Part shown: one piece after another, positions 25,573 to 51,402 of the stretch
Layout of the letters: each line of letters opens with the position of its first letter
How positions within the stretch are numbered: the stretch's first letter is position 1
Origin: a virus
Length of the DNA: 64,000 nucleotides
Direction: 5' to 3' (one strand)
Virus record (IMG/VR): IMGVR_UViG_3300014039_000031
Coordinates: 7,725 to 71,724 of that record
Notes under the pieces: model-generated
Databases searched by the model: none
What the model was told of the DNA's origin: nothing
What the model saw: the letters and a program-made list of their open reading frames with translations, nothing else
Made by a program: the position numbers and the translations under genes

Positions 25573-26926
25573 AAAGGCTTTTTATCCTTTATTTCTTATA
25601 GTTTCCTATAAGTTCGGCATATCTTTTCTACTTAATAATTTAAGTAGCCGCTGACTCTTGGAAGAATTATATTCTGTAATTACAGTTTCATCTTCTATGC
25701 TCTGCCCCTGACTAATATTTTATTACTAGCCTTCGGTTCGGATTAGCATATTCAATATTAATTTAATATTAAACTTAGCCTTCCCGCTTAATTCAGCAGT
25801 TTTAGCACGGCACGCGCTAAATCATATTTTCTATCTAAATAAATAGGACAATTTTCTGGATATAGCAGTTCTAATACGTTTTTGGTTCCCTCTCGGCAAG
25901 TTGTTTGCCAATAATATAAATCTGAACCAATACTTTCGCTATGAGCTTTTGGCTTTGCATGTTCCATTTTATGAGGAAAATACTCTTTTAAAACGCTGCT
26001 AATATAATTACAAACTTCTTCTGAACCAACTACACCCATTCTTAAATCTCTTGTAGTGGGTTTTCTAATCCATCCATCGCCGTCAATAATACCTCTAATA
26101 TAATTTAATTCAAGCTCTCTATCATTAAAAATAAATGGCTTTTCTTTTAGGCTTTTTCTTGGAGTAATATTATATTTTTGTAAGTCTTTACATAAATCAG
26201 TACTGCAAACATCAATAACCCAACAAAGATTATTCCTGTCATAAGCACCGCCATAGCAAGGTTTAATAACTTCATTTAATTTTTCTTTTGGATATTGTAA
26301 AAACTTAGCAAATTTATATACGTGTTCTTTGTCTTTATCTCCAAGACGAACCGTAACGTTATATGAAATATAATCTTTTGAATTCCCTTTGATTTTATTT
26401 TCAATAATACAACCATCTGCTAATAAGAAACCAAGCCAATATGCCATTTCTGGAGTTGGTTCTTCTCTAAAAATATCTCTTTTAAAATTGTATTTATATC
26501 TAACTGTATCCTCGTATCCAAGAACCTCTAGCCAATGACTAAAAACTCCATTTTGAGATATATTATATTTATCTCTAATTTCTTTTTTAGTAATATTAGG
26601 ATTATTTATATATTCTTGAATTGCTTCCCATTCTTTTGGTTCAAAATAATAGCAATATCCATTGTCTTCTTTTGGAAATACTAATTCTTTATACTTATCT
26701 TTCCAAGTTAATTTACAAAAACTATGCCTATCTATTTTAAACATATCTGCTACTTTTGATTTTGACAAACCTTTTTCATTCTCTTCCATATAAAACTTAG
26801 TTGCTTCATAGGTTGATACTTTTACTGCTTTCATATTTATATCCTTTCTTATATTATTTATCGCTATATAATATAAAAAATAGATATACAAAATAATAGA
26901 GATATGCCCATAAAAAATATAATCTA
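25573..26926 (-). mobile_element. Intervening sequence in topo A gene carrying LAGLIDADG homing endonuclease (inserted at HPHGD codons)
   Basis: Exon 1 ends ...WWPHG, exon 2 resumes AIYETF; stops flank. Confidence 0.55.
25788..26891 (-). CDS. LAGLIDADG homing endonuclease (double motif)
   Basis: YWLGFLLADGCI and IRGIIDGDGWI. Confidence 0.8.
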   Translation of the reverse strand: MYIYFLYYIAINNIRKDINMKAVKVSTYEATKFYMEENEKGLSKSKVADMFKIDRHSFCKLTWKDKYKELVFPKEDNGYCYYFEPKEWEAIQEYINNPNITKKEIRDKYNISQNGVFSHWLEVLGYEDTVRYKYNFKRDIFREEPTPEMAYWLGFLLADGCIIENKIKGNSKDYISYNVTVRLGDKDKEHVYKFAKFLQYPKEKLNEVIKPCYGGAYDRNNLCWVIDVCSTDLCKDLQKYNITPRKSLKEKPFIFNDRELELNYIRGIIDGDGWIRKPTTRDLRMGVVGSEEVCNYISSVLKEYFPHKMEHAKPKAHSESIGSDLYYWQTTCREGTKNVLELLYPENCPIYLDRKYDLARAVLKLLN

Positions 26927-29158: not shown

Positions 29159-29581
29159 TTATTTATTTAATTTTTCACGTGTCTTAATCTCATTCTCACA
29201 AAAAATATGAAAATTATTTTTCATATTCTGATACCTCTTTTGCTCTCGCCTATATTGTTCATTAATCATCTTTGCTTCACGGCAAGCAACATTGAAGGCA
29301 TCCATACCATCCGCCGCATTCATTTCACCAAGAGCAGATACAATATGATTGACTCCCTCAGCTCGTCCCTTCATAACCTTTAGACGCTCTGCGGCCATAG
29401 CCAAACGATTCTTATAATCCGCAATTTCCCAACCAATCCACTTATTGGCATTTTTCTTGTCCTCTTGGTCTGGTGCCGCATAAGAAGTAAACATTCCCCA
29501 TTTAGACGAACGAGTTACAGTTGCAACTTTAGTATCATCATCCCAAGAGCAATCAATAATTCGAGAGTGAGCCATTTGCAA
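29159..29581 (-). CDS. Hypothetical protein
   Basis: ORF. Confidence 0.4.
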   Translation of the reverse strand: MQMAHSRIIDCSWDDDTKVATVTRSSKWGMFTSYAAPDQEDKKNANKWIGWEIADYKNRLAMAAERLKVMKGRAEGVNHIVSALGEMNAADGMDAFNVACREAKMINEQYRREQKRYQNMKNNFHIFCENEIKTREKLNK

Positions 29582-30440
29582 TTTCCCTTTCTGTATATTT
29601 TGTCATAATATTAACTAAAAAATTATCTAAAAAGTCATTCGCGGCAATATTTTCTTTAGGTACACCAAAAGTAAAGCTAGGTTTCTCACTTTCAGCATCT
29701 TCAATAATAGCTTTCATGTTATGCACATATTCATCACAACGTGCTTTTGCTTCTTCTGGTGTTAAGGAAATCCTATAACGCTTAATATCCATCATTTCAT
29801 CTCGTACTTTATGAGAGTTAACGCGAATAGCTTTACTGAAAGGAACGCCTGAGCAATATTTAAAAATGAAATTATATAATCGAATAATATGCTGCAACTC
29901 TTTTGCCACATATCCATGCTTTTCAATCAATTCATGGTTAGCAGGAGAATCATGGCAGATTTTAGATGCTTTTTCACGAGCCATTCCAAGAGAAGAAGCA
30001 AGAACCTTATGCGGGTTAATGTTGGCAATTTCATCAACTTTAGAACAAAGAAGGTTCCATTCATTTTTATACACAGGGTTTACATAAACGTAATCTGTGC
30101 ATAAGATTTCAAGGAAATTAATATTGGCCTTGCGGAAAATGCGAAAATAGTCACGAATATCTTTTAATGTACAATGCTCATTATTGGCTAAAACTTCAAC
30201 TTTGTTAATAGATTTGCGGCCAAGGAACAAATCATCAAGTTTTGGGAATACAAGCATTTTTGTATCAACATCAGACGATTCATCAAAAAGACCATAATTC
30301 ATAGAGCCATTTGCCGCACAGACGAACATTTCCACTCCATCATATTTATGAGTCTCTTGGACTTCTTTTACATGAGCTTCAACACGTTTCTGAATGTCCC
30401 AATCATCTTTATACATATAATTCTCCTTTCTTTTAGACAA
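29553..30440 (-). CDS. Nucleotidyltransferase-fold protein (Pol-beta-like NTase)
   Basis: GS...DxD: CAANGSMNYGLFDESSDVDTK. Confidence 0.45.
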   Translation of the reverse strand: MSKRKENYMYKDDWDIQKRVEAHVKEVQETHKYDGVEMFVCAANGSMNYGLFDESSDVDTKMLVFPKLDDLFLGRKSINKVEVLANNEHCTLKDIRDYFRIFRKANINFLEILCTDYVYVNPVYKNEWNLLCSKVDEIANINPHKVLASSLGMAREKASKICHDSPANHELIEKHGYVAKELQHIIRLYNFIFKYCSGVPFSKAIRVNSHKVRDEMMDIKRYRISLTPEEAKARCDEYVHNMKAIIEDAESEKPSFTFGVPKENIAANDFLDNFLVNIMTKYTEREIANGSLSNY

Positions 30441-30513: not shown

Positions 30514-31950
30514 TTAGATTGTATACTTTTCCTCGATATAATCAACCAACTCTCCGCCATCTTCAACGTACTTAAGCATCTTAAATACATTGTCGTTGAG
30601 CGCGGTCATTAGATGCATATCAGGATTGTTCGAATTCACAATCTGAGTATGGTAATTTCCAAGGTCAAAGCTATAGAGAGTCGTGCGGCCATAGTTAGCG
30701 CAATACTCGTTATAAGAATACATTGCCTTATCATATCCCGCAGTAGACCAAAAATATGAACGCTTATCCATTACCTGCATATCAGATACAACAAAAATGC
30801 GGTCATAATTCTTATTGCGAATCATACCGAAAGCCGGAGCAATATCAGTACCATATCCGCAATGGTCATTATCACACATTTCACGAATAATCTGGAAAGG
30901 ACCGGAAGCCTTAGCAAACGTCTTCGTCTTTGCATCGTTACCGAACTTCACAAAGTCACAGTTCCCATTGATATATAGGGCTGCTGCGTAGCAAGCCCCA
31001 ACTTCCTTGATGGAAAGAGAAGACTTGTCGCCATACATATCATCCATGGAGCCAGAAACGTCAAGCATGATAACAGAAGTTCCATCCAACTCAGGCATAT
31101 TGCCACAAGCAATACGGAAAGCGGTATCAAGAGCTGTAATCACTGCCATATTCTGAACACTGAGATTTCGATAGGCCGTATAAATCTGATAAGGGAACAC
31201 AAGAGACTTGTGGATAGAGACTTCATTGATAATCTGGTCAACAAGATTCTTCTTGACCCAAACGTCATCAACGTCACTGTGTAGAATGTTGTTGAGATTG
31301 CGGATAAGGGCAAGATAACCAAGTTTATGTCCCTCTACAAGTTCCTTCCAACTAGTGGTACCAGTAGAAATACCAACTTCCCAAGTCTCAGGGGCAGCAA
31401 GAGTACCAGCCTTATACTTATCAATCGTCTCGCTATGAGCATGAGTAATATTGATAAGGTCATACATATTATACTGCTTACCGTTCATCTTATACTTAGC
31501 AATCTGATAATCACCAAGAGAAGAAAGATAATCAGCACAGCCACGAACCAGCGCATGAGAACGCCTGCCGCCAAGCATATCTACAGCTGCAAAAATCTCA
31601 GCTGGATCATCCGCGCGATGCATGAAATTCTTATAGAACTCACGCTTCTGCTCAAACTTCTCAAAATTCAGGCGAGCTGCGACAAGCTGAGAAGCCGAAC
31701 GCATACCAAGCTCATTACGCGCAAACTTAGCGCACTTGGCCGCAAACACAGGGCCATACTGCTCAATGATAGCATCAGTCAGCTTGATAAAACGCTCCTG
31801 TTGCACATCTGCGGATTCATAGAAGGTATTACACATCTTAGACGAGAAAATGAAATTCATCCACTCCTCGACAGGATTCTTTACATAATTAAGCCCACCC
31901 TCAAAAGAACGCTCACGAGAGGGCTTCACATTTTCATTAAACTTTGCCAT
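30514..31950 (-). CDS. rsr: Ro60/Rsr ortholog (TROVE + vWA domains)
   Basis: vWA MIDAS DVSGSM...GYGTD...FVVSD; YLALIRNLNN ~ Ro60 LLRNLGKM; SLVFPYQI ~ Ro60 HPFHIL; FEGGLNY ~ SEGGTYY. Confidence 0.65.
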   Translation of the reverse strand: MAKFNENVKPSRERSFEGGLNYVKNPVEEWMNFIFSSKMCNTFYESADVQQERFIKLTDAIIEQYGPVFAAKCAKFARNELGMRSASQLVAARLNFEKFEQKREFYKNFMHRADDPAEIFAAVDMLGGRRSHALVRGCADYLSSLGDYQIAKYKMNGKQYNMYDLINITHAHSETIDKYKAGTLAAPETWEVGISTGTTSWKELVEGHKLGYLALIRNLNNILHSDVDDVWVKKNLVDQIINEVSIHKSLVFPYQIYTAYRNLSVQNMAVITALDTAFRIACGNMPELDGTSVIMLDVSGSMDDMYGDKSSLSIKEVGACYAAALYINGNCDFVKFGNDAKTKTFAKASGPFQIIREMCDNDHCGYGTDIAPAFGMIRNKNYDRIFVVSDMQVMDKRSYFWSTAGYDKAMYSYNEYCANYGRTTLYSFDLGNYHTQIVNSNNPDMHLMTALNDNVFKMLKYVEDGGELVDYIEEKYTI

Positions 31951-32083: not shown

Positions 32084-32224
32084 AAAATAAAATAAAATGA
32101 GGAGATGTTAAAAACAGTACACAAAAGATACCGACCTACCCGACGCAATGTCTGCGAAGGACGGAGTTGAACCGCCTTTCCGCATTTTCAAGGTGAAGTA
32201 ACTGTTTTTCTATCACTCATTTTG
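32084..32224 (-). ncRNA. Y-RNA-like ncRNA upstream of rsr: long bulged terminal stem + tRNA-like acceptor/T-arm minihelix
   Basis: Own -35/-10 promoter; 5' strand aaaatgagtgatagaaaaacagttac pairs with 3' gtactgtttttaacatctcctcatttt; tgcggaa-a-GGCGG TTCAACT CCGTC-cttcgca; U-run end. Confidence 0.5.
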
Positions 32225-32231
32225 TAATTAT

Positions 32232-32261
32232 ATTATACAATATAAATTTTTAAAAGTCAAT
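32232..32261 (-). promoter_or_regulatory. Sigma-A-type promoter (TTGACT-17-TATAAT) for the Y-like RNA/rsr
   Basis: Minus-strand ttgacttttaaaaatttatattgtataat. Confidence 0.55.
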
Positions 32262-33888: not shown

Positions 33889-34101
33889 TTATGCCTTACG
33901 AATTTCAAACTTCGCACCATAGTAGATTTTACCAGACTGAATCTTATCAAGCATATCCTGCGCAGACTTTTTATCTGGAAAAAGCATTGCTTCATCTGAT
34001 TTAGTTGTCCGCATACCCTTTGCAGTTAGCATACGAAACTGCTTATCAACAAAAGGCTCCTGAGTGCGCTTACCATAAATACGATACATTAATACTCCCA
34101 T
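33889..34101 (-). CDS. Hypothetical protein
   Basis: ORF. Confidence 0.35.
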   Translation of the reverse strand: MGVLMYRIYGKRTQEPFVDKQFRMLTAKGMRTTKSDEAMLFPDKKSAQDMLDKIQSGKIYYGAKFEIRKA

Positions 34102-34301
34102 TCATCTAAAACATTTTTAAGGCGAATTTCCTTAGTAAAATTATTGATTGCTTCTACCTCTTGGTCCTCATAATCGTAAAATACTTCTGCAACGTTACCC
34201 AACCATACAAAATGCTGGTAACCACCTTCATTCACAAGACCAAACAAATCAAAAGTTTTATACTCTGGACGTCCATCTGTGATAGCATCATTGAGTGTCA
34301 T
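34089..34301 (-). CDS. Hypothetical protein
   Basis: ORF. Confidence 0.35.
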   Translation of the reverse strand: MTLNDAITDGRPEYKTFDLFGLVNEGGYQHFVWLGNVAEVFYDYEDQEVEAINNFTKEIRLKNVLDEWEY

Positions 34302-34312
34302 TTTGTTCTCCT

Positions 34313-34786
34313 CTAAAGAAGCTGATTCGCATCACTATATGTGCGGCCGCCTTTAGGAGTCGGCCATTGACTATATGGTACTACTTTTTCCGATTGGTCG
34401 CAAGTACATTTATCTGAAAGGCCGTTATATTTTTCATAATCACTCTTGGTTGCAAGATGCCATTTACCGTCATTTTTCCAATTATATTCTACTTTGATAT
34501 GAAGTAGTGAAAAAGCATTTTTAGAACCGATTAAAACATCCTGAACATGCCTATATAGGTCAAGATATTGTTCACGTTCATCTTCACTTTCGGCAGTGAT
34601 ATGTTTCTCATAATGACGATTTGCAGTTTCCTGTTCATCGTTCATATACTTTTCAATATCACGTTTCTCATATTGATTTAAATTATCATAATTTTCAGGA
34701 TATTCATCTTGTTCATTAATGTTTTTAATACGCATAATTTTCCTTTCTTTTGGTATCATATTATCATATAAAAAAGGAGTTGTCAA
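34313..34786 (-). CDS. Hypothetical acidic protein
   Basis: ORF. Confidence 0.4.
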   Translation of the reverse strand: MTTPFLYDNMIPKERKIMRIKNINEQDEYPENYDNLNQYEKRDIEKYMNDEQETANRHYEKHITAESEDEREQYLDLYRHVQDVLIGSKNAFSLLHIKVEYNWKNDGKWHLATKSDYEKYNGLSDKCTCDQSEKVVPYSQWPTPKGGRTYSDANQLL

Positions 34787-34804
34787 GAAAAATTTGACAA
34801 CTCC
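34770..34804 (-). terminator. Intrinsic terminator (ggagttgtcaa/ttgacaactcc)
   Basis: Hairpin + U-run on minus strand. Confidence 0.55.
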
Positions 34805-34816
34805 AACATTATATAT

Positions 34817-35755
34817 TTAGTTGTTACTATTGGTCAGAATATATTCACGAATAGCCGCTTGCGCCAAACCTTTAATCTTTGCAAGATTAACACTGGCAAC
34901 CTTCTTCTTACGATAAAAGTCCCAAAAATTCTCTTCCATAAGCTCGTTCAAAACTTTTTGCATACACATACCGAAGAATTTACCATTGCGGCAATCAATT
35001 TCATCCATATCGAGAACGATAAGAACTTTATTAACTTCCTTTTCGACAAAAGCAGGCGTACAAAACTTATCTACAAACTCTTTTTCAGTATCATTTTGGT
35101 TGACATTGGTCTTCTTAGTGGTTTTATTATGATGCCATTCATCGCGTACAATTTTAGCAACTTGTGGATTTCCCCACGGGTCACGAAGAACTGGATAAGT
35201 TTTAATAACAATACCTTCACCAATAATACCAGAAGGAAGATTAAAAGTACAAGAATCTACATACTTATCAACATCATCCCAAGTCATATTATCAATGCGG
35301 GCAATGATAGGAACGCAACGATGATAAATTTTACTTACTACTGGATACCATACATCATAATCAATATATTCACCGCTGTCAGTATCAAAAACATCAAAGA
35401 TAAAGAAACCACCTTCAATATACTGTTTAATGCTACCGACAAACTTGCGGCCATCCACTCCGCCAAGCCATTCACCATAAATAATATAGCTAGGATTGTC
35501 AAGCAACCAATCCTTTAAAGCATTGATTTCAGTGTCATTAGAATTTGTAATATAGTATGCAAATCCAGCATTATCCTTCTCAATAGAAATCTCACGGGTA
35601 CGAGAGCCACACGCAATTTTGCCCTCATCATCTACCCAAATGCTGGAATTGCTTCCGTCCATTTTCGGCTGAATTAAAACCGACTTACAAATGAAACCCT
35701 GAACTTCATTACGAGTAGAGCGTTCAAGATGAATATACTTGTTGAAATGTGACAT
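34817..35755 (-). CDS. ATP-dependent RNA ligase, Rnl1-like (nucleotidyltransferase motif I KMDGS, motif IV EGIVIK)
   Basis: IQPKMDGSNSS; GEGIVIKTY. Confidence 0.55.
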   Translation of the reverse strand: MSHFNKYIHLERSTRNEVQGFICKSVLIQPKMDGSNSSIWVDDEGKIACGSRTREISIEKDNAGFAYYITNSNDTEINALKDWLLDNPSYIIYGEWLGGVDGRKFVGSIKQYIEGGFFIFDVFDTDSGEYIDYDVWYPVVSKIYHRCVPIIARIDNMTWDDVDKYVDSCTFNLPSGIIGEGIVIKTYPVLRDPWGNPQVAKIVRDEWHHNKTTKKTNVNQNDTEKEFVDKFCTPAFVEKEVNKVLIVLDMDEIDCRNGKFFGMCMQKVLNELMEENFWDFYRKKKVASVNLAKIKGLAQAAIREYILTNSNN

Positions 35756-36304
35756 GTTTTCCTCTTTCTCTCTTTCAACAATTACATTATATCATGCATT
35801 TTATAAAATTGCAAGAAAAATTTTTCTTCTCTTTTCTGTTTTCTTATAGTTATTTTTGCGTAGCAAAAATAACGTAATTCTTTTATCTTTTCTCTTCTTT
35901 ATAATTTTTACGTCACTGTAAGTGACGTAAAAGATAAATTAATTTAAAGATAATTTATTTTATAATTATATAAATAATATTATATTTGTCAATATTATTT
36001 CTTATTATATATAAAAATTATAAAGAATAAATAAACTAATTTAAAATAATTAATTAATTACATTAGTTTTACATTATATACTATATATTATATTAATAAT
36101 ATTCTTATTATATATAATCTTATATAATTAGTCTTAAGGGGTAAACCCCTTAACAACCCAGTTATTAATTATAACGTAATTTTTCATTTTGTCAAGAGTT
36201 CTGTAAAAAATTTTTTATAACAAAATTTATGCTAAAAATATTGTTGACTAATTTAATTTTATAGTTTATAATGTTCTCAACACGCAAACAAAAGAAAGGA
36301 AAAT
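35756..36304. other. AT-rich divergent intergenic control region with perfect palindromes (tacgtcact gtaa gtgacgta at 35898..35925; taaggggt aaa ccccttaa at 36134..36154)
   Basis: No ORFs; strand switch point. Confidence 0.5.
36244..36272 (+). promoter_or_regulatory. Promoter TTGACT-17-TATAAT
   Basis: Consensus hexamers. Confidence 0.55.
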
Positions 36305-36688
36305 ATGGAACAGATTACAGCAGAAGCAGCTCGCCGCATTCGACAGCAGAGTGTAGTAGATAAAAAGAAAAAGGAACTGGAAGAAGCTCAAAATATTCCA
36401 TTTTTTGAAGAGCTAACTGAGAAAGTAAAAGACGCGGCGTTCAATGGCGAAAGTAATGTACAGATTGGGCCGCATGAATCAGAATATTACCAAGAGGTTA
36501 TCGATAGTGGCAAGATTGTTCATAGTAAAGAGAAGCAACTTCCGCTAGACTGGAAAAAAGTTTTCAAGGTTTTTGAAGAGTCTCTTGGATATAAAGTTTC
36601 AATTGTGCAATATCCTGCGCAATTTCTTAAGTCCAATGGCCTTGATATGGTTACACTCAATATTGAGACTGCAACTGTATATTGGTAG
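36305..36688 (+). CDS. Hypothetical protein
   Basis: ORF with RBS. Confidence 0.5.
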   Translation: MEQITAEAARRIRQQSVVDKKKKELEEAQNIPFFEELTEKVKDAAFNGESNVQIGPHESEYYQEVIDSGKIVHSKEKQLPLDWKKVFKVFEESLGYKVSIVQYPAQFLKSNGLDMVTLNIETATVYW

Positions 36689-36694
36689 TAAAAT

Positions 36695-37216
36695 ATGAAG
36701 CACACGTTAATTATGATGGCAGGCCCTGCGAGTTCAGGAAAATCTGTATTTGCAAAAATCATTAAAGATTCACATGATGATTGCGTTGTAGTTTCATATA
36801 AACAGATGGCAAAAGCAGCACTGGTCGCAAAAGAACCGCAACATTATGTAGATAAGCGATATATCGAAGTATTAAATAATATGCTTGAAACACATGAATA
36901 TGTAATTGCTGATAATTACAATATCAATGCAAATGAACGCAAAAAAATATTTGACAATATAAATATTGATAAATATAATATTATTTGTGTTTGGGTGGAA
37001 ACGCCTCTTAATGTTGCATTGAAGCGAAATGCACAACTAGATGAAAAGTGGCGAAGGTCGGAAGACTCTATAAAGCAAATGTATAAAATTAAAGTATCGC
37101 CGCAAGAACAAGAGCCTTTTAAAAAAGTAATTTTCATTTCAGAGCAAATGAATTATGCTATTGGAACAGATACAATGGAAATTCAAAATATTTTAGATAC
37201 TCTTAAGGCTCTATAG
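36695..37216 (+). CDS. P-loop kinase, polynucleotide kinase (Pnk kinase-domain)-like
   Basis: GPASSGKS; VIADNYNINANERKK and VALKRN resemble T4 Pnk kinase domain. Confidence 0.5.
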   Translation: MKHTLIMMAGPASSGKSVFAKIIKDSHDDCVVVSYKQMAKAALVAKEPQHYVDKRYIEVLNNMLETHEYVIADNYNINANERKKIFDNINIDKYNIICVWVETPLNVALKRNAQLDEKWRRSEDSIKQMYKIKVSPQEQEPFKKVIFISEQMNYAIGTDTMEIQNILDTLKAL

Positions 37217-37268
37217 TACTTTGACAATTGAATATTTTATTTTAATTATTATTTAATAAAAGGAAATA

Positions 37269-38189
37269 ATGTTAAAATTTATTTGTATTTTAATTGCGGC
37301 AATGTTTATTGTTAATTTTCTTTGTAGTTTTACTAAAGAATATCGAGAAAGTAATAATGTTGGCATTAATCGAGCCATTTCAGTTGTAATTGCAGTAATT
37401 CTAATTGGTATTTCATGTGTATATACACAAGACGTAGGCGAAGTTGTTGTACTTCGCTCTATTGGTGGTAGTCTCTCTGGTTACACAAGTGAAGCTGGTT
37501 TCCATTTTACTGCACCATGGAATGATACAATTTCGTTCGATACCCGTAACAATTTAATTAACTTTCATGGTTCAAAAACAGACTACTCTTATGATGGAGG
37601 TTCTGCGGAAGGCCCATATGTAACTGTAAACGATAAGTCTGGCTCCAAGGCGAATGTAGATATACAAGTCAATTACAGTCTAGACTCAAAGACTGCTGAG
37701 TATCTATATACTGAATACGGAACGCAAGAGAACTTTACTAAGAACTATGCTTCCAATGACCTTCGCTCTGTAGCGCGTGAGGTGTCTGGTCAGTTTGACA
37801 CAATCACTATGTTAACTGACCGCTCTCAATATACGAAAGCAGTCCAAAAAGCTCTAGAAAAGAAGTGGAAGAAAATTGGCCTAACTGTTGAGCAAGTCAG
37901 TGTGCAAGACATTTCTTATGCTAAATCTATTACAGATGCCTATGCTGATTCTCAGGCAGCAGAAGTAGAAAAGGCTAAGGCTCAGAATCAACAAGAAACT
38001 GCCAAGATTAAGGGAGACACTAAAGTAATTGAAGCTACAAAGGAAGCAGAAGCTAATAAAGTTCTTAATGATTCATTAACTGATAATGTTCTTTCTCAGC
38101 AATATATTGAAGCTCTAAAAGAAATGTCTAAGAATGGCAATACTGTAGTAGTCCCACAAGGTTCAACTCCAGTAGTATCAACTAAATAA
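37269..38189 (+). CDS. SPFH/band-7 domain membrane protein
   Basis: TM then VVVLRSIGG...GFHFTAPWNDTISFDTR SPFH pattern. Confidence 0.55.
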   Translation: MLKFICILIAAMFIVNFLCSFTKEYRESNNVGINRAISVVIAVILIGISCVYTQDVGEVVVLRSIGGSLSGYTSEAGFHFTAPWNDTISFDTRNNLINFHGSKTDYSYDGGSAEGPYVTVNDKSGSKANVDIQVNYSLDSKTAEYLYTEYGTQENFTKNYASNDLRSVAREVSGQFDTITMLTDRSQYTKAVQKALEKKWKKIGLTVEQVSVQDISYAKSITDAYADSQAAEVEKAKAQNQQETAKIKGDTKVIEATKEAEANKVLNDSLTDNVLSQQYIEALKEMSKNGNTVVVPQGSTPVVSTK

Positions 38190-38194
38190 TCAAT

Positions 38195-38232
38195 AGCCTC
38201 AAAGTTTTTCTTGACTTTGAGGCTATTTTTTT
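38195..38232 (+). terminator. Intrinsic terminator whose loop carries the -35 (ttgact) of the next promoter
   Basis: agcctcaaag/ctttgaggct + T-run. Confidence 0.6.
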
Positions 38233-38271
38233 ATATACTTATGCTAACAGAATCCAAGAGGAAGAGAGATT

Positions 38272-38451
38272 ATGGATGCAAATGTAGCAATGGTATGTGT
38301 CACGGTTATTTGCGTCGCGGCAATTATAGCTAAATGCTATATGGAACATTTGGCTGAAACTACTCGACGCATTAGGGCGAACGCACCAGAGCACCAACGC
38401 AATATCGATAACGTTCCATACAATATGAACAATATCTGGAAGAAGAAGTAA
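38272..38451 (+). CDS. Small membrane protein (59 aa)
   Basis: MDANVAMVCVTVICVAAIIAK...; followed by two more short TM ORFs 38451..38537 and 38537..38656. Confidence 0.35.
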   Translation: MDANVAMVCVTVICVAAIIAKCYMEHLAETTRRIRANAPEHQRNIDNVPYNMNNIWKKK

Positions 38452-38708
38452 TGTTTAATATTATTTTATCATTTGCCGCAGGTTTTATAATTGGATATGC
38501 GGTGTGTTGTATTCTTACTATTGGAAAGGATAACTAATGGCAGATTGCATTTTTGTTGCATATATCCTTGCTGTAATTGGATATGCATATTTTTCATTTA
38601 GCCGCAAATTTGAAAATATTCGATTCAATTTATATCGAATGTATCTTAATTTTTAGTTGACTATTGACTTTATATAAATTATAATATAAACCAATAGAAA
38701 GAGGAATT

Positions 38709-39149: not shown

Positions 39150-39719
39150 ATGATTACTCAATATTCTCATGGTATCAATACAGAAGCAAATCCAAGCAAC
39201 AATGTAATCGATATTTACAAAAAGTGGAGTGCGGAAGAAGTGCGGGCTAGCCTTCAACCAAATCGTACTTCACTTGTAAATATTTGTCTCAATCTTGACC
39301 ATGGATTTAACGTTGGTTCTATTATTCGCGCATCAAATTGTTTTCTTGCTAAGGAGACTTATGTGGTTGGCCGCAAACGCTTTGACGCTCGTGGGGGTGT
39401 TGGATCCAAAAAATACGAACGCGTATATCACGCAGATACATTAGATGAAGTCATTGAAGTTCTGCATCCTCTTGGATATACCATTTTTGCTGTAGATAAT
39501 GTAGAAGAATATAATCCGCAGAATATTTTTGATGCTGATATTCCAATGAAATCTGCTTTTGTATATGGAAGTGAGGGCGATGGTTTGCCAAAAGATGCTA
39601 TTGACAAATGTGATGAAATGGTATATATTAGGCAATATGGAAGTATTCGCTCACTAAATGTGGCACAAGCTGCCGCATGTTGTATGATGGAATATTCTAG
39701 ACGTTATCAAATGAGGTAG
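39150..39719 (+). CDS. SpoU/TrmH-family RNA 2'-O-methyltransferase
   Basis: NVGSIIRAS, VYGSEGDGL, SLNVAQAAACCMMEY motifs. Confidence 0.75.
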   Translation: MITQYSHGINTEANPSNNVIDIYKKWSAEEVRASLQPNRTSLVNICLNLDHGFNVGSIIRASNCFLAKETYVVGRKRFDARGGVGSKKYERVYHADTLDEVIEVLHPLGYTIFAVDNVEEYNPQNIFDADIPMKSAFVYGSEGDGLPKDAIDKCDEMVYIRQYGSIRSLNVAQAAACCMMEYSRRYQMR

Positions 39720-39988: not shown

Positions 39989-40432
39989 ATGGCTGAGTTG
40001 ACTAAGAGCGACTATAGATACTTTGAAATGGCACATAGGGAAGCTGAAAAATCTACCTATGATACCTTTCATCTTGGATGCGTTCTAGTCTATAAAGGTC
40101 ACATTATCGGTCGCGGAAGCAATTCCTCTAAAACTTCACCTATTCAGGCCAAATATAATCAGTTCAGGCAGTTCCGATATGGGCCGCAATTAGTAGCACA
40201 TAAAAACCATGCTGAAATCAGCGCTATTAAGAGTGTACCTTATCAGGTAGATAAAGAGACTGATTGGTCAAAGGTTTCATGTTACATTTATCGTATCTCT
40301 AAGGGTCGAAAAAAGAATGTGGGTTTAGCTCGACCTTGTGAGGGATGTTTTCAGGCACTTATCGATAAAGGTATTCGTAACATCTACTATACTACAAATA
40401 ATGGCTATGCGTATGAGGAAATTCTTGTATAA
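39989..40432 (+). CDS. Cytidine/deoxycytidylate deaminase family zinc enzyme
   Basis: HAEISAI ... PCEGCFQAL. Confidence 0.65.
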   Translation: MAELTKSDYRYFEMAHREAEKSTYDTFHLGCVLVYKGHIIGRGSNSSKTSPIQAKYNQFRQFRYGPQLVAHKNHAEISAIKSVPYQVDKETDWSKVSCYIYRISKGRKKNVGLARPCEGCFQALIDKGIRNIYYTTNNGYAYEEILV

Positions 40433-40847: not shown

Positions 40848-40922
40848 GGGCCATTAGCTCAGTTGGATTAGAGCCTGAAACTTCTATTTTCAAAGTCGCG
40901 CGTTCGAGTCGCGCATGGCTCA
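40848..40922 (+). tRNA. tRNA-Arg (anticodon TCT)
   Basis: Manual cloverleaf: GGGCCAT/ATGGCTC acceptor, GCTC/GAGC D stem, TGAAA-CTTCTAT-TTTCA anticodon arm, GCGCG-TTCGAGT-CGCGC T arm; flanked by inverted repeat cagtctacta/tagtagactg. Confidence 0.8.
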
Positions 40923-40969
40923 CTTAGTAGACTGGCAATAAGTTAGTCTATGTTATTTAAAACAGCATT

Positions 40970-41236: not shown

Positions 41237-42172
41237 ATGAATGAAGTAGATATGCTCCGCAATGATTCTCTTGTGCGGGAAAAGGATTTGGGAAACGGAA
41301 TCTCGTCTTTCAATTTTTCCAATAAGTGCTTTTGGGATAAGAAGTGGACTACGGAGTCAATCAAGGCTCGCGGATTATTCTGTGATGTTAAAAATAACAA
41401 TGTTGTGGCACGTTCTTATAATAAGTTTTTCAATATTGGAGAGCGTCCTGAGACTGAAATGCTGAATCTTCGTACTACTTTTGCATATCCTGTGCAGGCA
41501 TATGTGAAGTATAATGGTTTTTTGGCAATCGTCTCAGCAGATAAGGATAATCCCGATAAGTTGTTCATCGCATCCAAGAGCACTAATGAAGGCCCGTTTG
41601 CGGGATACATTAAGAACATTATTAACTCTATGCTGAGCGAAGACACGCAAAAGGATTTTGCAAACACCTTGCATAATCTTAATATCTCTGCTGTGTTTGA
41701 GTGTATTGACCCAGCGCATGACACGCATATTGTAGAATATTTCAGTCCGCATTTAGTTATGCTTGATTGTATTTATAATTCCTTTGAATATAAGCACATG
41801 TCATATGAGAATATGAGAGAATTTGCATGTAAGTTTGGTTTTTTGTTTAAGGTTCGTTTTTCCATTTTAACAGATTGGGAAGATTTTACAAGTTTTATTG
41901 ATTGGCATAAGGATGATAATGGGATTGAAGGATTTGTGTTTGAAGATGCTAATGGGTTCATGGTAAAGTATAAAACTTTATGGTATCGTTACTGGAAGCA
42001 GGTGCGTGGCGTTTTGCAGCAGGTCTGGAACGGACGTGATATTGATTCAATCAAGAATATCAATAACAAGATTAAGCCAGAGCACAAGCAGCCGCTTCTT
42101 GATTTCGTAGCTTCATGCCGCAATCGTGATGCGTGTCCATCAGTAATTGAATTCCGCAACTCTTTATCTTAA
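41237..42172 (+). CDS. Ligase/nucleotidyltransferase-superfamily protein (RNA ligase-like; motif I KYNG, motif IV-V EGFVFEDANGFMVKYK)
   Basis: Motif inspection. Confidence 0.4.
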   Translation: MNEVDMLRNDSLVREKDLGNGISSFNFSNKCFWDKKWTTESIKARGLFCDVKNNNVVARSYNKFFNIGERPETEMLNLRTTFAYPVQAYVKYNGFLAIVSADKDNPDKLFIASKSTNEGPFAGYIKNIINSMLSEDTQKDFANTLHNLNISAVFECIDPAHDTHIVEYFSPHLVMLDCIYNSFEYKHMSYENMREFACKFGFLFKVRFSILTDWEDFTSFIDWHKDDNGIEGFVFEDANGFMVKYKTLWYRYWKQVRGVLQQVWNGRDIDSIKNINNKIKPEHKQPLLDFVASCRNRDACPSVIEFRNSLS

Positions 42173-45730: not shown

Positions 45731-45784
45731 GAGCCTACAGTGTTCCAGAAATATTGTAGGCTCATTTTTCTTTTGGCAAAGCCA
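45731..45784 (+). terminator. Intrinsic terminator (gagcctaca...tgtaggctc + T-run) ~100 nt downstream of promoter: short transcript/attenuator
   Basis: 9-bp stem + attttt ctttt. Confidence 0.55.
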
Positions 45785-46144
45785 GTTTAGTATAACAGTA
45801 ATACATCGCTCTTGTAAAGCGAAGCAGACAGGGCAGCACTGTCAACTGGCTCCAATATTTTAGTATTCTATGAGGATAATATAAAAGGAGATTCGACCAC
45901 TCCAAGCAATGCACTTGTATTATTCTCATAGAGTGCTAACCTTAGACACTCTCCAAGTGATAGTAGAGCGGAATTTGACCCCGTCTGTGCTATCCCAAGT
46001 TATAAGCGATTCGGGCAGTCGCTATACAAATTTGCCCACTTTAGATTATTAGATAGGCTACATAGGGAGTAGCTACCTCATGGAAAAGTGAATATCCACC
46101 ACCTGCCTATCTATTGTATTTAGTGGATAGGAAAGTGTGGATAT
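45785..46144 (+). other. Highly structured ~360-nt noncoding leader of HNH endonuclease gene; start codon region sequestered
   Basis: Many local and long-range complementarities (agataggc/gcctatct; aatatccacca/tgtggatat covering ATG). Confidence 0.45.
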
Positions 46145-47900: not shown

Positions 47901-47973
47901 GCGCCCTTAGCTTAGTTGGTAAAGCAGTGGACTCTTAATCCAAAGACCGTCAGTTCGAATCTGACAGGACGCA
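47901..47973 (+). tRNA. tRNA-Lys (anticodon CTT)
   Basis: Manual cloverleaf; GTCAG-TTCGAAT-CTGAC T arm. Confidence 0.75.
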
Positions 47974-47988
47974 CCTATTTTATTTCGC

Positions 47989-48061
47989 TCGTCTGTAGTT
48001 CAGCTGGTAGAACATTTGGCTGTTAACCAAAATGTCGTAGGTTCGAGTCCTACCGGACGAG
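47989..48061 (+). tRNA. tRNA-Asn (anticodon GTT)
   Basis: Close to E. coli tRNA-Asn architecture; TTTGG-CTGTTAA-CCAAA. Confidence 0.8.
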
Positions 48062-51039: not shown

Positions 51040-51048
51040 TATTGGAAT

Positions 51049-51121: not shown

Positions 51122-51129
51122 CCCGACAT

Positions 51130-51401: not shown

Positions 51402-51402
51402 T

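What the first reader, a model, noticed from the sequence alone, without database searches (positions are those of the whole stretch)
34817..37216. RNA-repair enzyme pair at the strand-switch: Rnl1-like RNA ligase and Pnk-like kinase
34817..35755 (minus) has nucleotidyltransferase motif I KMDGS (as T4 Rnl1 KEDGS) and motif IV EGIVIK. 36695..37216 (plus) is a P-loop kinase resembling the T4 Pnk kinase domain. Together with the second Pnk-like kinase (51589..52071) and the phosphoesterase (49678..50217), this is the classic healing and sealing toolkit used against host anticodon nucleases. Here the phosphatase appears as a separate calcineurin-like enzyme rather than fused to Pnk.
Basis: partly seen in the sequence, partly recalled or inferred. 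Interest (0 to 1): 0.6.

Follow-up and report, generated by a model that had tools for sequence, protein, structure and literature searches.

The report
Phage RNA-repair gene set, partly misassigned
An uncultured ~115-146 kb phage carries a real but already-described type of RNA-repair toolkit, in which the flagged ligase is an Rnl2-type nick sealer rather than Rnl1, the flagged kinase has lost its catalytic residues, and the likely working tRNA-repair enzymes lie elsewhere in the window.

Summary
Both ORFs exist with the stated motifs, and profile searches place them in RNA-ligase and Pnk/PSTK-kinase families, not DNA-ligase or dNMP-kinase families. Three corrections apply.

1. The ligase (34817..35755, minus) is not Rnl1-like. 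It matches PF09414, aligns to T4 Rnl2 across both domains, and full-length T4 Rnl2 is its best fold match. Its motif V is K-x-V, not K-x-K.

2. In other phages this domain is fused to a kinase and a metallophosphoesterase.

3. The kinase (36695..37216) has a Pnk/PSTK fold and an intact P-loop, but lacks the equivalents of T4 Pnk Asp35, Arg38 and Arg126. Syntenic orthologs and the window's second kinase (51589..52071) keep them.

The toolkit is wider than reported. It also includes a Ro60/TROVE protein with a candidate Y RNA, an RlaP-like nucleotidyltransferase, a SpoU methyltransferase and eight tRNA genes (seven called by ARAGORN, one more by Rfam). The ligase-TROVE neighbourhood is conserved in relatives. 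Such phage toolkits were described by Iyer et al. 2021. This is a new member of a known kind, of modest interest.

The parts
34817..35755 (-). LigA: ATP-dependent RNA ligase with Rnl2-type architecture (N-terminal nucleotidyltransferase domain with K31 nucleophile, plus a C-terminal four-helix domain, residues ~222-308)
   Evidence: PF09414 E=1.3e-17; phrog_548 full length E=4.5e-39; family profile vs PDB: NgrRnl 2e-13, T4 Rnl2 3e-9, no Rnl1; hhalign to T4 Rnl2 prob 97.5%, 4-299 vs 2-326; model pLDDT 87.3; Foldseek top hit full-length T4 Rnl2, E=7e-15
34776..34804 (-). terminator-like hairpin directly after LigA
   Evidence: consensus scan only
35756..36304 (.). AT-rich divergent promoter region: perfect TTGACA-16-TATAAT on the minus strand at 36195..36168 and 35992..35965; TTGACT-17-TATAAT on the plus strand at 36244..36272
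   Evidence: consensus matches; function inferred
36305..36688 (+). ORF127, unknown function, co-oriented with and 6 nt upstream of kinase 1; conserved in L001, L009 and L010
   Evidence: no Pfam or PHROG assignment; tblastn synteny; the apparent fusion to the kinase in P0125 is a read-through artefact
36695..37216 (+). Kinase 1: Pnk/PSTK-fold P-loop protein with degenerate acceptor site (K36, A39 and L115 in place of T4 Pnk D35, R38 and R126)
   Evidence: AAA_33 E=9.8e-11; alignments; model pLDDT 95.8; Foldseek PSTK 5e-8, CthPnk 9e-7, T4 Pnk 6e-6
37269..38189 (+). SPFH/Band-7 membrane protein, last gene of the ORF127-kinase 1 block; followed by a bidirectional terminator-like hairpin at 38192..38227
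   Evidence: PF01145 E=2.5e-29; present in L009 and L010, absent in L001
39150..39719 (+). SpoU-class RNA 2'-O-methyltransferase (RlmB/TrmH/TrmL-like), syntenic with kinase 1 and LigA in close relatives
   Evidence: PF00588 E=1.8e-26; NCBIfam partial hits; synteny
40848..40923 (+). tRNA-Arg(TCT), first gene of a dispersed phage tRNA set
41237..42172 (+).
   Evidence: PF09511 E=1.1e-39; phrog_8238 E=6.8e-72; TIGR02308 partial match; fungal Trl1 ligase domains E=7.5e-13; 38-42% identity to the ligase domain of kinase-phosphoesterase-ligase fusions in Twort and Alicyclobacillus phages
47901..48062 (+). tRNA-Lys(CTT) and tRNA-Asn(GTT)
48959..49046 (+). tRNA-Leu(CAA)
49678..50217 (+). stand-alone YfcE/Metallophos_2 phosphoesterase, candidate 3'-end healing enzyme (assignment inferred)
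   Evidence: PF12850 E=5.4e-11, phrog_547 E=1.4e-41; TIGR00040; aq_1665 E=1.6e-4; no specific similarity to the Twort fusion's PF00149 domain
51048..51479 (+). tRNA-Ile(TAT), tRNA-Ser(TGA) and tRNA-Phe(GAA), immediately upstream of kinase 2
51589..52071 (+). Kinase 2: intact Pnk-type 5'-kinase candidate (P-loop AIPAAGKT, SRDNIR, DATH, lid NAKRD)
   Evidence: AAA_33 E=2.2e-11, phrog_505 PNK E=1e-16; alignments; 29% identity, E=3e-8 to the Twort fusion kinase domain; homologs annotated polynucleotide kinase beside tRNA ligase in Bacillus phages
30514..31950 (-). Ro60/TROVE RNA-binding protein
   Evidence: PF05731 E=4.4e-12; phrog_850; solved TROVE-domain proteins 9l5y/9kop E=2.8e-24; lies 2-3.5 kb from LigA in 6 of 7 assessable loci
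32084..32225 (-). candidate YrlA-type Y RNA with its own consensus promoter (~32260..32232); ends approximate
29553..30440 (-). RlaP-like Pol-beta nucleotidyltransferase (RNA 3'-end nucleotide addition)
   Evidence: PF10127 24.7 bits vs cut-off 23, E=2.2e-5; phrog_388 E=1.9e-13; orthologs downstream of TROVE in L001 and L010; no solved relative by sequence

Best explanation
The flagged genes belong to a dispersed, early-expressed RNA repair and tRNA maintenance gene set in a large uncultured phage.

Proposed pathway (inferred):
1. [quoted passage not shown]
2. The 5'-OH is phosphorylated by the intact kinase 2 (51589..52071).
3. The 3' end is cleaned, possibly by the stand-alone metallophosphoesterase (49678..50217).
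4. Missing 3' nucleotides can be restored by the RlaP-like nucleotidyltransferase (29553..30440).
5. Single-stranded loop breaks are sealed by the Rnl1/Trl1-clade ligase (41237..42172).

The flagged ligase (34817..35755) is a second, non-redundant sealing enzyme of Rnl2 architecture. Lys31 would be adenylylated, AMP passed to a 5'-phosphate, and a nick closed in duplex RNA or in an RNA:DNA hybrid with an RNA 3'-OH strand. It is genomically coupled to a Ro60/Y-RNA module rather than to the kinase.

The flagged kinase 1 (36695..37216) keeps the Pnk/PSTK fold and a nucleotide-binding P-loop, but has lost the general base and both phosphate-binding arginines. It is most likely not a 5'-OH polynucleotide kinase. 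It may be a nucleotide-binding accessory protein acting with ORF127 and the SPFH protein.

Shown: family and fold assignments, residue states and synteny. Inferred: substrates, order of steps and the biological trigger.
For: Ligase family and fold:
- PF09414 and phrog_548.
- Family profile against PDB hits NgrRnl (2e-13) and T4 Rnl2 (3e-9), with no Rnl1 match.
- hhalign to verified T4 Rnl2 gives 97.5% over both domains. The pairings are K31=K35, R52=R55, E95=E99, F120/D121=F119/D120, E180=E204 and K201=K225.
- Foldseek ranks full-length T4 Rnl2 first.

Separate DNA ligase in the window.

True Rnl1-clade ligase. Fused kinase-metallophosphoesterase-ligase homologs in Twort and Alicyclobacillus phages.

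Kinase residues:
- Wide family consensus is SRDxIR / DATH / RN..R. Kinase 2 conforms; kinase 1 has SYKQMA and RNAQLD.
- T4 Pnk sequence verified.
- Essentiality of these residues comes from PMC2831316 and PMC3902929.

Other components and context:
- RlaP and TROVE hits. RlaP adds 1-2 nucleotides to damaged RNA 3' ends (PMC12776372).
- Conserved neighbourhood across relatives with 35-76% ligase identity.
- Eight tRNA genes in the plus arm.
- The same kind of toolkit is described for phages in PMC7824862.
Against: - No biochemical data exist for any of these proteins.
- The ligase family lacks the second motif V lysine (V203 where T4 Rnl2 has K227), so its catalytic competence is assumed, not shown.
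- The phosphoesterase is a generic YfcE-type enzyme with no specific similarity to RNA-repair phosphoesterase domains. Its role in end healing rests on guilt by association.
- The genes are scattered over ~22 kb on both strands, not in one operon.
- No host anticodon nuclease is known for this uncultured phage.
- The RlaP assignment is only just above the Pfam cut-off.
- Kinase 1 could use non-canonical residues.
Confidence: 0.7

Rival explanations
1. The 34817..35755 ligase is an Rnl1-type tRNA anticodon-loop ligase, and the adjacent divergent kinase 1 is its Pnk partner. Together they form the core healing-and-sealing pair.
For: Both are conserved as a divergent pair in close relatives (L001, L009, L010). 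KxDG and EGxxxK motifs are present. Kinase 1 has the Pnk/PSTK fold.
Against: The ligase has no PF09511 or T4 RnlA match and shows Rnl2 architecture. A real Rnl1-clade ligase exists 5.5 kb away. Kinase 1 lacks the equivalents of D35, R38 and R126. The adjacency is lost in more distant relatives.
Confidence: 0.08
2. LigA works in DNA replication or repair rather than RNA repair. It would seal nicks whose 3'-OH strand is RNA (ribonucleotide patches or primer remnants), a substrate that Rnl2 and Rnl5 enzymes accept in vitro.
For: It heads the minus arm, which is otherwise rich in replication genes: topoisomerase II, DNA ligase, primase, helicase, polymerase. Rnl5 and Rnl2 ligases seal RNA-OH/pDNA nicks, and a role in DNA repair with RNA patches has been proposed (PMC4408790). 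The closest cultured-phage homolog was annotated 'DNA ligase' by one depositor.
Against: Its most conserved neighbour is TROVE, with Y-RNA-like elements, and Rnl1 and RlaP genes lie nearby. That is an RNA-centred context. A canonical DNA ligase is already present.
Confidence: 0.12
3. The gene set serves phage tRNA biogenesis and RNA quality control (processing, modifying and surveilling the phage's own tRNAs with Ro60/Y RNA), rather than countering host nucleases.
For: Eight phage tRNA genes are interleaved with the kinase 2 and phosphoesterase genes. A SpoU 2'-O-methyltransferase and a Ro60/Y-RNA module are present. Ro60 is an RNA quality-control factor (PMC4201824, PMC12135203).
Against: None of the phage tRNAs is reported as intron-containing or split, so no ligase is obviously needed for their maturation. 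The published view of such phage sets is counter-defence (PMC7824862). The two roles are not mutually exclusive.
Confidence: 0.15
4. Kinase 1 is still an active kinase, either using non-canonical residues or acting on a different acceptor such as a small molecule, a nucleotide or an aminoacyl-tRNA as PSTK does.
For: The P-loop is intact and the fold prediction is very confident. PSTK is the best structural and sequence relative. The ORF is intact and conserved in close relatives.
Against: The residues lost are those that position and deprotonate the acceptor hydroxyl and bind the NTP beta-phosphate. D-to-N alone abolishes activity in T4 Pnk (Asp35) and leaves CthPnk (D38N) unable to catalyse. 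Among kinase 1's closest relatives several also have degenerate P-loops, which suggests relaxed catalytic constraint in this clade.
Confidence: 0.2

Closest known systems
T4 RNA ligase 2 (Rnl2, gp24.1) and the Rnl2/REL family (PF09414)
   Same: Same two-domain architecture: an N-terminal nucleotidyltransferase domain plus a C-terminal helical domain. The alignment spans both domains and full-length T4 Rnl2 is the best fold match. Motif I Lys, the R55 equivalent, and motifs III, IIIa, IV and the first motif V Lys are conserved.
   Different: Only 18-20% identity in the structural alignments, and no direct phmmer hit. The second motif V lysine (K227) is Val throughout this family. The nucleotidyltransferase domain scores better against Rnl5 (NgrRnl) than against Rnl2. 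The gene is linked to a Ro60/TROVE gene.
Rnl5 (Naegleria NgrRnl / Deinococcus DraRnl)
   Same: Best sequence-profile match for the nucleotidyltransferase domain (E=2e-13). Also a nick-sealing type ligase (PMC4408790).
   Different: Rnl5 is defined by an N-terminal domain and the absence of a C-terminal appendage. LigA has its nucleophile at residue 31, which leaves no room for an N-domain, and it has a C-terminal domain.
T4 Rnl1 (RnlA, gp63) with T4 Pnkp: the classic anti-PrrC tRNA repair pair
   Same: Same overall logic of 5'-kinase, 3'-end healing and ATP-dependent sealing. The window does encode an Rnl1-clade ligase (41237..42172) and an intact Pnk-type kinase (kinase 2).
   Different: The flagged ligase is not of this family. 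The Rnl1-clade ligase here is 311 aa, scores far below the T4 RnlA equivalog cut-off (32.5 vs 242 bits), and is closer to fungal Trl1 and phage fusion-protein ligase domains. The kinases are stand-alone and have no fused HAD phosphatase. The candidate phosphatase is a metallophosphoesterase.
Kinase-metallophosphoesterase-ligase fusion proteins (bacterial Pnkp architecture; Twort ORF008 and Alicyclobacillus phage KKP_3916 745-aa protein)
   Same: The same three activities are implied. The window's Rnl1-clade ligase is 38-42% identical to their ligase domain. Kinase 2 aligns to their kinase domain (E=3e-8).
   Different: Here the three functions are separate genes up to 10 kb apart. The window's phosphoesterase is PF12850/YfcE-type, not the PF00149 domain of the fusions, and shows no specific similarity to it.
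Phage RNA-repair toolkits catalogued by Iyer, Anantharaman, Krishnan, Burroughs and Aravind 2021 (PMC7824862), and Ro60-YrlA modules (Chen et al. 2014, PMC4201824)
   Same: The combination of tRNAs, Rnl1 and/or Rnl2, polynucleotide kinase, phosphoesterase (calcineurin-like in a few phages), RlaP and TROVE with a tRNA-like RNA partner is exactly what those papers describe.
   Different: This genome is ~115-146 kb (not jumbo), uncultured, and not in the cultured-phage collection. One of its two kinases is catalytically degenerate. The window's Y RNA copy is too divergent for the Rfam YrlA model.

Membership tests
Rnl1 (T4 RnlA) - for the flagged ligase 34817..35755 | Match to the Rnl1 nucleotidyltransferase profile (PF09511 / TIGR02308) | tested here: not met
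   Pfam returns only PF09414. NCBIfam returns nothing. Neither the single sequence nor the family profile hits T4 Rnl1 chains.
Rnl1 (T4 RnlA) - for the flagged ligase 34817..35755 | Rnl1-type C-terminal domain that confers tRNA specificity | tested here: not met
   The C-terminal domain aligns to the T4 Rnl2 C-domain. Foldseek ranks T4 Rnl2 first (7e-15) and T4 Rnl1 ninth (1.4e-9).
Rnl2 / REL family - for the flagged ligase | PF09414 nucleotidyltransferase domain with motif I lysine nucleophile and motifs III, IIIa and IV | tested here: met
   PF09414 E=1.3e-17, 64.9 bits vs cut-off 27. K31, E95, F120 and E180 are invariant in the family and pair with T4 Rnl2 K35, E99, F119 and E204; D121 pairs with T4 D120.
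Rnl2 / REL family - for the flagged ligase | Motif V with two lysines (T4 Rnl2 K225 and K227) | tested here: not met
   K201 aligns to K225, but V203 (invariant) aligns to K227.
Rnl2 / REL family - for the flagged ligase | Signature C-terminal domain appended to the nucleotidyltransferase domain | tested here: met
   The model has helices 222-308. hhalign extends to T4 residue 326. Foldseek aligns ~347 columns to full-length 2hvr/2hvq.
Rnl2 / REL family - for the flagged ligase | Sealing of 3'-OH/5'-PO4 nicks in duplex RNA via a ligase-AMP intermediate | not testable with these tools
   Requires adenylylation and nick-sealing assays.
Rnl5 (NgrRnl/DraRnl) - for the flagged ligase | Defining N-terminal domain and no C-terminal appendage (PMC4408790) | tested here: not met
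   The nucleophile is at residue 31 and a C-terminal domain is present.
T4 Pnk-type 5'-OH polynucleotide kinase - for kinase 1 (36695..37216) | P-loop GxxxxGK[ST] (T4 K15, S16) | tested here: met
   GPASSGKS, with K16 and S17.
T4 Pnk-type 5'-OH polynucleotide kinase - for kinase 1 (36695..37216) | General-base Asp and acceptor-phosphate Arg (T4 D35/R38; CthPnk D38/R41) | tested here: not met
   SYKQMA: K36 and A39 occupy these positions. Their essentiality is documented in PMC2831316 and PMC3902929.
T4 Pnk-type 5'-OH polynucleotide kinase - for kinase 1 (36695..37216) | Lid arginine that binds the NTP beta-phosphate (T4 R126) | tested here: not met
   RNAQLD: L115 is at the R126 position, while R111-N112 (= T4 R122-N123) are kept.
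T4 Pnk-type 5'-OH polynucleotide kinase - for kinase 1 (36695..37216) | Pnk-type P-loop kinase fold | tested here: met
   Model pLDDT 95.8. Foldseek: PSTK 5e-8, CthPnk 9e-7, T4 Pnk 6e-6 with rmsd 2.8 A over 143 columns.
T4 Pnk-type 5'-OH polynucleotide kinase - for kinase 2 (51589..52071) | P-loop, Asp-x-x-Arg and lid Arg all present | tested here: met
   AIPAAGKT, SRDNIR, DATH and NAKRD. phrog_505 polynucleotide kinase E=1e-16.
T4 Pnkp (bifunctional) - for either kinase | Fused C-terminal HAD/DxDxT 3'-phosphatase domain | tested here: not met
   The proteins are 173 and 160 aa with only the kinase domain.
Rnl1/Trl1 clade - for the ligase at 41237..42172 | PF09511 profile match with motif I Lys and motifs IV and V | tested here: met
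   PF09511 E=1.1e-39, 137 bits vs cut-off 28.3. KYNG, EGFV and KYK align to Trl1 KANG, EGFV and KYK. It does not reach the T4 RnlA equivalog cut-off.
RNA-repair 3'-end healing phosphoesterase - for 49678..50217 | Metallophosphoesterase fold with metal-binding motifs | tested here: met
   PF12850 E=5.4e-11. DxH, GD, GNHD and GHVH are visible in the sequence.
RNA-repair 3'-end healing phosphoesterase - for 49678..50217 | Specific relationship to a phosphoesterase shown to act on RNA 2',3'-cyclic-P or 3'-P ends | tested here: not met
   No significant similarity to the Twort fusion's phosphoesterase domain. The only solved relative is an uncharacterised Aquifex protein.
RlaP (PF10127) - for 29553..30440 | Profile match above the curated cut-off | tested here: met
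   24.7 bits vs cut-off 23, E=2.2e-5, which is marginal. phrog_388 nucleotidyltransferase E=1.9e-13.
Ro60 / Y RNA module - for 30514..31950 and ~32084..32225 | TROVE-domain protein | tested here: met
   PF05731 E=4.4e-12. Solved TROVE-domain proteins E=2.8e-24.
Ro60 / Y RNA module - for 30514..31950 and ~32084..32225 | Adjacent YrlA-type RNA: terminal stem plus tRNA-like T and D arms | tested here: inconclusive
   Relatives' elements match Rfam YrlA full-length at E=3e-5 and 5e-5, below the gathering score. The window copy has the promoter, terminal stem, shared motifs and a T-arm-like hairpin, but no YrlA hit. Stem complementarity is 7 of 11 perfect against 8.8% in controls.

The most novel reading that the evidence does not exclude
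The PF09414 ligase family defined here has Rnl2 architecture, an Rnl5-like nucleotidyltransferase sequence and a single-lysine motif V. It lies 2-3.5 kb from a Ro60 gene in 6 of 7 assessable relatives. It could be a dedicated partner of a phage Ro60/Y-RNA particle. In that reading the tRNA-like Y RNA or the Ro60 ring presents or splints broken structured RNAs for nick sealing. The catalytically degenerate kinase 1, with ORF127 and the SPFH protein, would then be a nucleotide-sensing regulator rather than a repair enzyme.
Probability: 0.1. Interest if true: 0.65.

Novelty: new member of a known kind. Interest (0 to 1): 0.35.

Why it matters
This is mainly a correction of annotation logic. In phage genomes a KxDG ligase next to a P-loop kinase is not automatically a T4-style Rnl1/Pnk pair. 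Residue-level checks here separate a probably inactive kinase paralog from the working one, and an Rnl2-type nick sealer from the tRNA-loop ligase.

Biologically, the locus adds an abundant uncultured phage lineage of ~115-146 kb from metagenome assemblies, with a 'Clostridiales bacterium' label on one homolog. It joins the phages that combine two ATP-dependent RNA ligase families, a kinase, a phosphoesterase, RlaP, Ro60 with Y RNAs and their own tRNAs. That points to strong pressure from RNA-targeting host defences.

The graded loss of catalytic residues along one orthologous kinase series is a tidy natural experiment on pseudoenzyme evolution. The series runs from intact (L008, L011), to Asp and both Arg retained (L009, L010), to Asp lost (L001), to Asp and both Arg lost (window). 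None of this overturns current understanding.

Tried and rejected
1. Gene-fusion evidence linking ORF127 to kinase 1. P0125 and P0126 (~300 aa) looked like fusions. Translating L009 shows an in-frame TAG stop that the gene caller read through, and the window's ORF127 ends in TAG TAA. Rejected as an artefact. No suppressor tRNA is among the tRNAs found.

2. Near-identical cultured phage. Megablast of 34000..38500 against 50,697 phage records found nothing.

3. ORF127 function. No Pfam or PHROG assignment, and only two close homologs by word-index search. It remains unassigned.

4. LigA as the phage's DNA ligase. Rejected because a canonical PF01068/PF04679 ligase is at 22634..23668.

5. The window phosphoesterase as the split-off middle domain of the Twort-type fusion. 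No specific similarity was found, so only 'same superfamily' can be claimed.

6. Rfam YrlA hit for the window's candidate Y RNA. None, even when searching 211 nt alone.

7. A covariance model from relatives. Abandoned because MAFFT misaligned the variable 3' halves. A direct complementarity test replaced it.

8. RlaP confirmation by a solved structure. No sequence-level hit.

9. NCBIfam naming of the deaminase (39989..40432), to decide between dCMP deaminase and a tRNA deaminase. No hit. Left as a generic cytidine/dCMP deaminase.

Full report
**1. What is at the coordinates**

The ORF list confirms a 312-aa ORF at 34817..35755 (minus) and a 173-aa ORF at 36695..37216 (plus). A 127-aa ORF lies at 36305..36688, just upstream of the kinase on the same strand. 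GC skew changes sign near 36000.

The 549-bp gap between the divergent genes is very AT-rich. It holds perfect sigma-70 consensus promoters on the minus strand (36195..36168 and 35992..35965) and a near-perfect one on the plus strand (36244..36272). Terminator-like hairpins follow the ligase (34804..34776) and the SPFH gene (38192..38227).

The transcription units therefore look like [ligase] and [ORF127, kinase 1, SPFH], each driven from the shared early-type promoter region. This is inferred from consensus scans only.

**2. The ligase is Rnl2-type, not Rnl1-type**

- Pfam assigns it to PF09414 RNA_ligase (E=1.3e-17), the REL/Rnl2-type domain, and not to PF09511.
- PHROGs matches phrog_548 'RNA ligase' end to end (E=4.5e-39).
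- A single-sequence search of the PDB finds nothing.
- A 22-sequence family profile finds Naegleria NgrRnl (Rnl5) at 2e-13 over the nucleotidyltransferase domain. It finds T4 Rnl2 at 3e-9 with an alignment running into the Rnl2 C-domain, and Rnl3 at 4e-5. It finds no Rnl1.
- hhalign of the family against it gives 97.5% probability over residues 4-299 against 2-326.
- The AlphaFold model (pLDDT 87.3) has an N-terminal nucleotidyltransferase domain and a C-terminal helical domain.
- Foldseek ranks full-length T4 Rnl2 first (E about 7e-15). Rnl3, T4 Rnl1 (1.4e-9) and NgrRnl follow.

Residue pairings with T4 Rnl2:

| LigA | T4 Rnl2 | Motif |
|---|---|---|
| K31 | K35 | I |
| R52 | R55 | |
| E95 | E99 | III |
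| F120/D121 | F119/D120 | IIIa |
| E180 | E204 | IV |
| K201 | K225 | V |

One departure stands out. The second motif V lysine (T4 K227) is an invariant valine (V203) in this family.

By the published criteria, Rnl5 has an N-terminal domain and no C-terminal appendage, and Rnl2 has a signature C-terminal domain. Both seal nicks whose 3'-OH strand is RNA (PMC4408790). On that basis this protein has Rnl2 architecture.

**3. It is not the phage's DNA ligase**

A canonical ATP-dependent DNA ligase (PF01068 plus PF04679, phrog_114) is at 22634..23668 on the minus strand.

**4. A true Rnl1-clade ligase was missed**

The ORF at 41237..42172 (plus, 311 aa) matches PF09511 RNA_lig_T4_1 at E=1.1e-39 and phrog_8238 at 6.8e-72. 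Its best solved relatives are fungal Trl1 tRNA-ligase adenylyltransferase domains (E=7.5e-13). KYNG, EGFV and KYK align to Trl1 motifs I, IV and V. It is far below the T4 RnlA equivalog cut-off, so it belongs to the Rnl1 clade but is not a T4 RnlA ortholog.

Its closest cultured-phage relatives (38-42% identity) are the C-terminal domains of ~750-aa proteins in Staphylococcus phage Twort (ORF008) and Alicyclobacillus phage KKP_3916. Their architecture is AAA_33 kinase, PF00149 metallophosphoesterase and PF09511 ligase. That is a single-chain healing-and-sealing enzyme.

Kinase 2 aligns to the Twort kinase domain (29%, E=3e-8). The window's phosphoesterase shows no specific similarity to the Twort middle domain.

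**5. The flagged kinase has the fold but not the chemistry**

Kinase 1 matches AAA_33 (9.8e-11) and KTI12. Its nearest solved sequences are PSTK. A family profile also reaches CthPnk (6.8e-9), Pnkp1 and T4 Pnk. Its model is very confident (pLDDT 95.8). Foldseek returns PSTK, CthPnk and T4 Pnk, the last with rmsd 2.8 A over 143 columns.

A full HMMER scan found 228 relatives. Aligned, the broad family shows the P-loop, S-R-D-x-I-R, D-A-T-H and R-N-x-x-R, which match T4 Pnk's NRDDYR, SDTN and KRNSKR. The T4 sequence was verified.

| Protein | P-loop | Motif after P-loop | Lid region |
|---|---|---|---|
| Kinase 2 | AIPAAGKT | SRDNIR | NAKRD |
| Kinase 1 | GPASSGKS | SYKQMA | RNAQLD |

In kinase 1, K36 replaces the general-base Asp, A39 replaces the acceptor-phosphate Arg, and L115 replaces the NTP-binding lid Arg.

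These residues are documented as essential. In T4 Pnk the essential kinase residues are K15, S16, D35, R38, D85 and R126 (PMC2831316). In CthPnk they are K21, D38 and R41, and even D38N blocks catalysis (PMC3902929).

The kinases syntenic with the ligase form one orthologous series. They share a unique C-terminal extension (KVSPQ..EPFD..IFIS..AIG), and the catalytic motifs degrade stepwise:

| Locus | Motifs | State |
|---|---|---|
| L008, L011 | SRDSIR, DATH, QN..R | fully intact |
| L009, L010 | KRDNCR, RNKNRD | Asp and both Arg retained |
| L001 | SESNIR | Asp lost |
| window | SYKQMA, RNAQLD | Asp and both Arg lost |

Kinase 2 is closer to the intact L011 kinase (41% identity) than to kinase 1 (31% over 67 residues). 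I conclude that kinase 1 is unlikely to be a 5'-OH polynucleotide kinase, and that kinase 2 is the credible one.

**6. The toolkit is wider than reported**

| Coordinates | Strand | Assignment |
|---|---|---|
| 30514..31950 | minus | Ro60/TROVE protein (PF05731; solved TROVE proteins 2.8e-24) |
| 29553..30440 | minus | RlaP-like nucleotidyltransferase (PF10127, just above cut-off; phrog_388 1.9e-13) |
| 39150..39719 | plus | SpoU RNA 2'-O-methyltransferase |
| 39989..40432 | plus | cytidine/dCMP deaminase |
| dispersed | plus | eight tRNA genes: seven by ARAGORN (Arg-TCT, Lys-CTT, Asn-GTT, Leu-CAA, Ile-TAT, Ser-TGA, Phe-GAA), plus an Rfam-only hit at 45781..45851 |

RlaP enzymes add one or two nucleotides to damaged RNA 3' ends (PMC12776372). 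The phosphoesterase and kinase 2 sit among the tRNA genes.

**7. Conservation**

The ligase has 489 homologs in the large protein collection, many on contigs of 130-154 kb. Among cultured phages it has only distant relatives. The best is Cellulophaga phi19:3 at 29%, and the Tsamsa-like Bacillus phages also carry one.

Neighbourhoods were retrieved for relatives at 35-76% ligase identity and re-scored by tblastn with the window proteins:

| Locus | Toolkit genes found near the ligase |
|---|---|
| L010 | kinase 1, ORF127, SPFH, SpoU, deaminase, Rnl1, TROVE, RlaP-like (the whole set) |
| L001 | all except SPFH |
| L009 | divergent ligase / ORF127, kinase, SPFH, SpoU; the contig ends before the TROVE position |
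| L008, L011 | PF00149 metallophosphoesterase, intact kinase, TROVE, Rnl1, all on one strand |
| L006 | TROVE (plus a metallophosphoesterase) |
| L007 | ligase only |

TROVE lies 2-3.5 kb from the ligase in 6 of 7 assessable loci. The divergent ligase|kinase arrangement holds only in the closest relatives.

Kinase 2's exact sequence occurs on many 115-146 kb contigs, with the PF12850 phosphoesterase upstream. In Tsamsa-like phages its homolog is annotated polynucleotide kinase and abuts an Rnl1-type tRNA ligase.

**8. How it most likely works**

This is inference built on the assignments above. [quoted passage not shown]

1. Kinase 2 phosphorylates the 5' end.
2. A phosphoesterase opens and removes the 3' phosphate. 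The YfcE-type enzyme is a candidate only by association.
3. RlaP restores lost 3' nucleotides.
4. The Rnl1/Trl1-clade ligase seals loop breaks.
5. The Rnl2-type ligase seals nicks within duplex regions.
6. The phage tRNAs replace depleted species.
7. Ro60 with its Y RNA handles misfolded or damaged RNAs.

This is the scheme laid out for phages by Iyer et al. 2021. That paper explicitly lists Rnl1/Rnl2 combinations, polynucleotide kinases, occasional calcineurin-like phosphatases, RlaP and TROVE with a tRNA-like partner (PMC7824862).

**9. Candidate Y RNA (side finding)**

A 555-bp gap lies upstream of the TROVE gene on the minus strand. In it, a consensus promoter (~32260..32232) precedes a ~140-nt element. 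The element has a terminal stem (AAAUGAG/CUCAUUU), an inner stem (AAAAACAG/CUGUUUUU), a conserved GUUACUUC motif, a T-arm-like hairpin (GGCGG-UUCAACU-CCGUC) and a U-run.

Relatives carry one to five such elements upstream of TROVE. Many have canonical T and D arms. Two match Rfam YrlA full-length at E=3e-5 and 5e-5, below the gathering score.

Across 11 elements the 8-mer 5' of the motif differs in every copy. It has a perfect complement downstream in 7 of them, against 8.8% at random positions. In 9 of 11 the partner is followed within 18 nt by a UUUCC-type motif.

The window copy itself gets no YrlA hit. YrlA RNAs next to Ro60 genes, including in 22 phages, are known (PMC4201824).

**10. Verdict**

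- The general 'healing and sealing' interpretation is supported as an inference.
- The specific family call (Rnl1) is wrong.
- The flagged kinase is probably not the working Pnk.
- The flagged pair is not the core unit.

The system is a new member of a known kind. Its minor points of novelty are the K-x-V motif V ligase clade linked to Ro60 and the degenerating kinase paralog.

Noticed in passing
window ~32084..32225 (-), promoter ~32260..32232 (-); L001 12690..12940; L006 13421..14154; L008 13962..14307; L011 13099..13313: Candidate YrlA-type Y RNA(s) upstream of the Ro60/TROVE gene. Each has a terminal stem, a conserved GUUACUUC motif, T-arm and D-arm-like hairpins and a 3' UUUCC motif, with one to five copies per relative. 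Two relatives' copies hit Rfam YrlA at E~4e-5. The window copy is too divergent for Rfam. Stem complementarity is far above control (7 of 11 perfect against 8.8%).
   Followed up: partly
window 41237..42172 (+): A second RNA ligase, of the true Rnl1/Trl1 clade (PF09511, E=1e-39), not mentioned in the finding. It is homologous to the ligase domain of kinase-metallophosphoesterase-ligase fusion proteins in Twort and Alicyclobacillus phages.
   Followed up: yes
window 29553..30440 (-) and 30514..31950 (-): An RlaP-like Pol-beta nucleotidyltransferase and a Ro60/TROVE protein sit next to each other, downstream of the flagged ligase. The arrangement is conserved in L001 and L010.
   Followed up: partly
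window 39150..39719 (+): A SpoU-class RNA 2'-O-methyltransferase is conserved in synteny with kinase 1 and the ligase (window, L001, L009, L010). It could modify phage or host tRNA. A protective role against cleavage, analogous to Hen1, is speculation only.
   Followed up: no
L002 and L003 (contigs carrying the same ligase protein, P0005, as L001): Two independent assemblies end ~225-235 bp upstream of the ligase start, inside the AT-rich divergent intergenic region. This could reflect a genome terminus, a repeat, or an assembly break in low-complexity sequence.
   Followed up: no
window 4952..10350, 218..2792, 21385..22263, 11124..11915, 15672..16352, 25788..26891, 46145..46870, 52815..53507: Many homing-endonuclease genes (GIY-YIG, HNH, LAGLIDADG). 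Several split or abut essential genes. The DNA polymerase is in two pieces flanking a GIY-YIG gene. NrdD is in two ORFs. One endonuclease domain is fused upstream of thymidylate synthase.
   Followed up: no
window 45781..45851 (+): Rfam tRNA hit (44.9 bits, E=2.5e-6) that ARAGORN did not call. Possibly an eighth, atypical tRNA gene.
   Followed up: no
L009 3483..4394; proteins P0125 and P0126: Public gene calls for a relative read through in-frame TAG stops. This creates a false ORF127-kinase fusion protein in the protein database, apparently because an alternative genetic code was applied by the gene caller.
   Followed up: yes
window 36134..36155 and 35911..35931: Short perfect palindromes (cttaaggggtaaaccccttaag; tacgtcactgtaagtgacgta) inside the divergent promoter region. 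They could be operator or origin elements.
   Followed up: no
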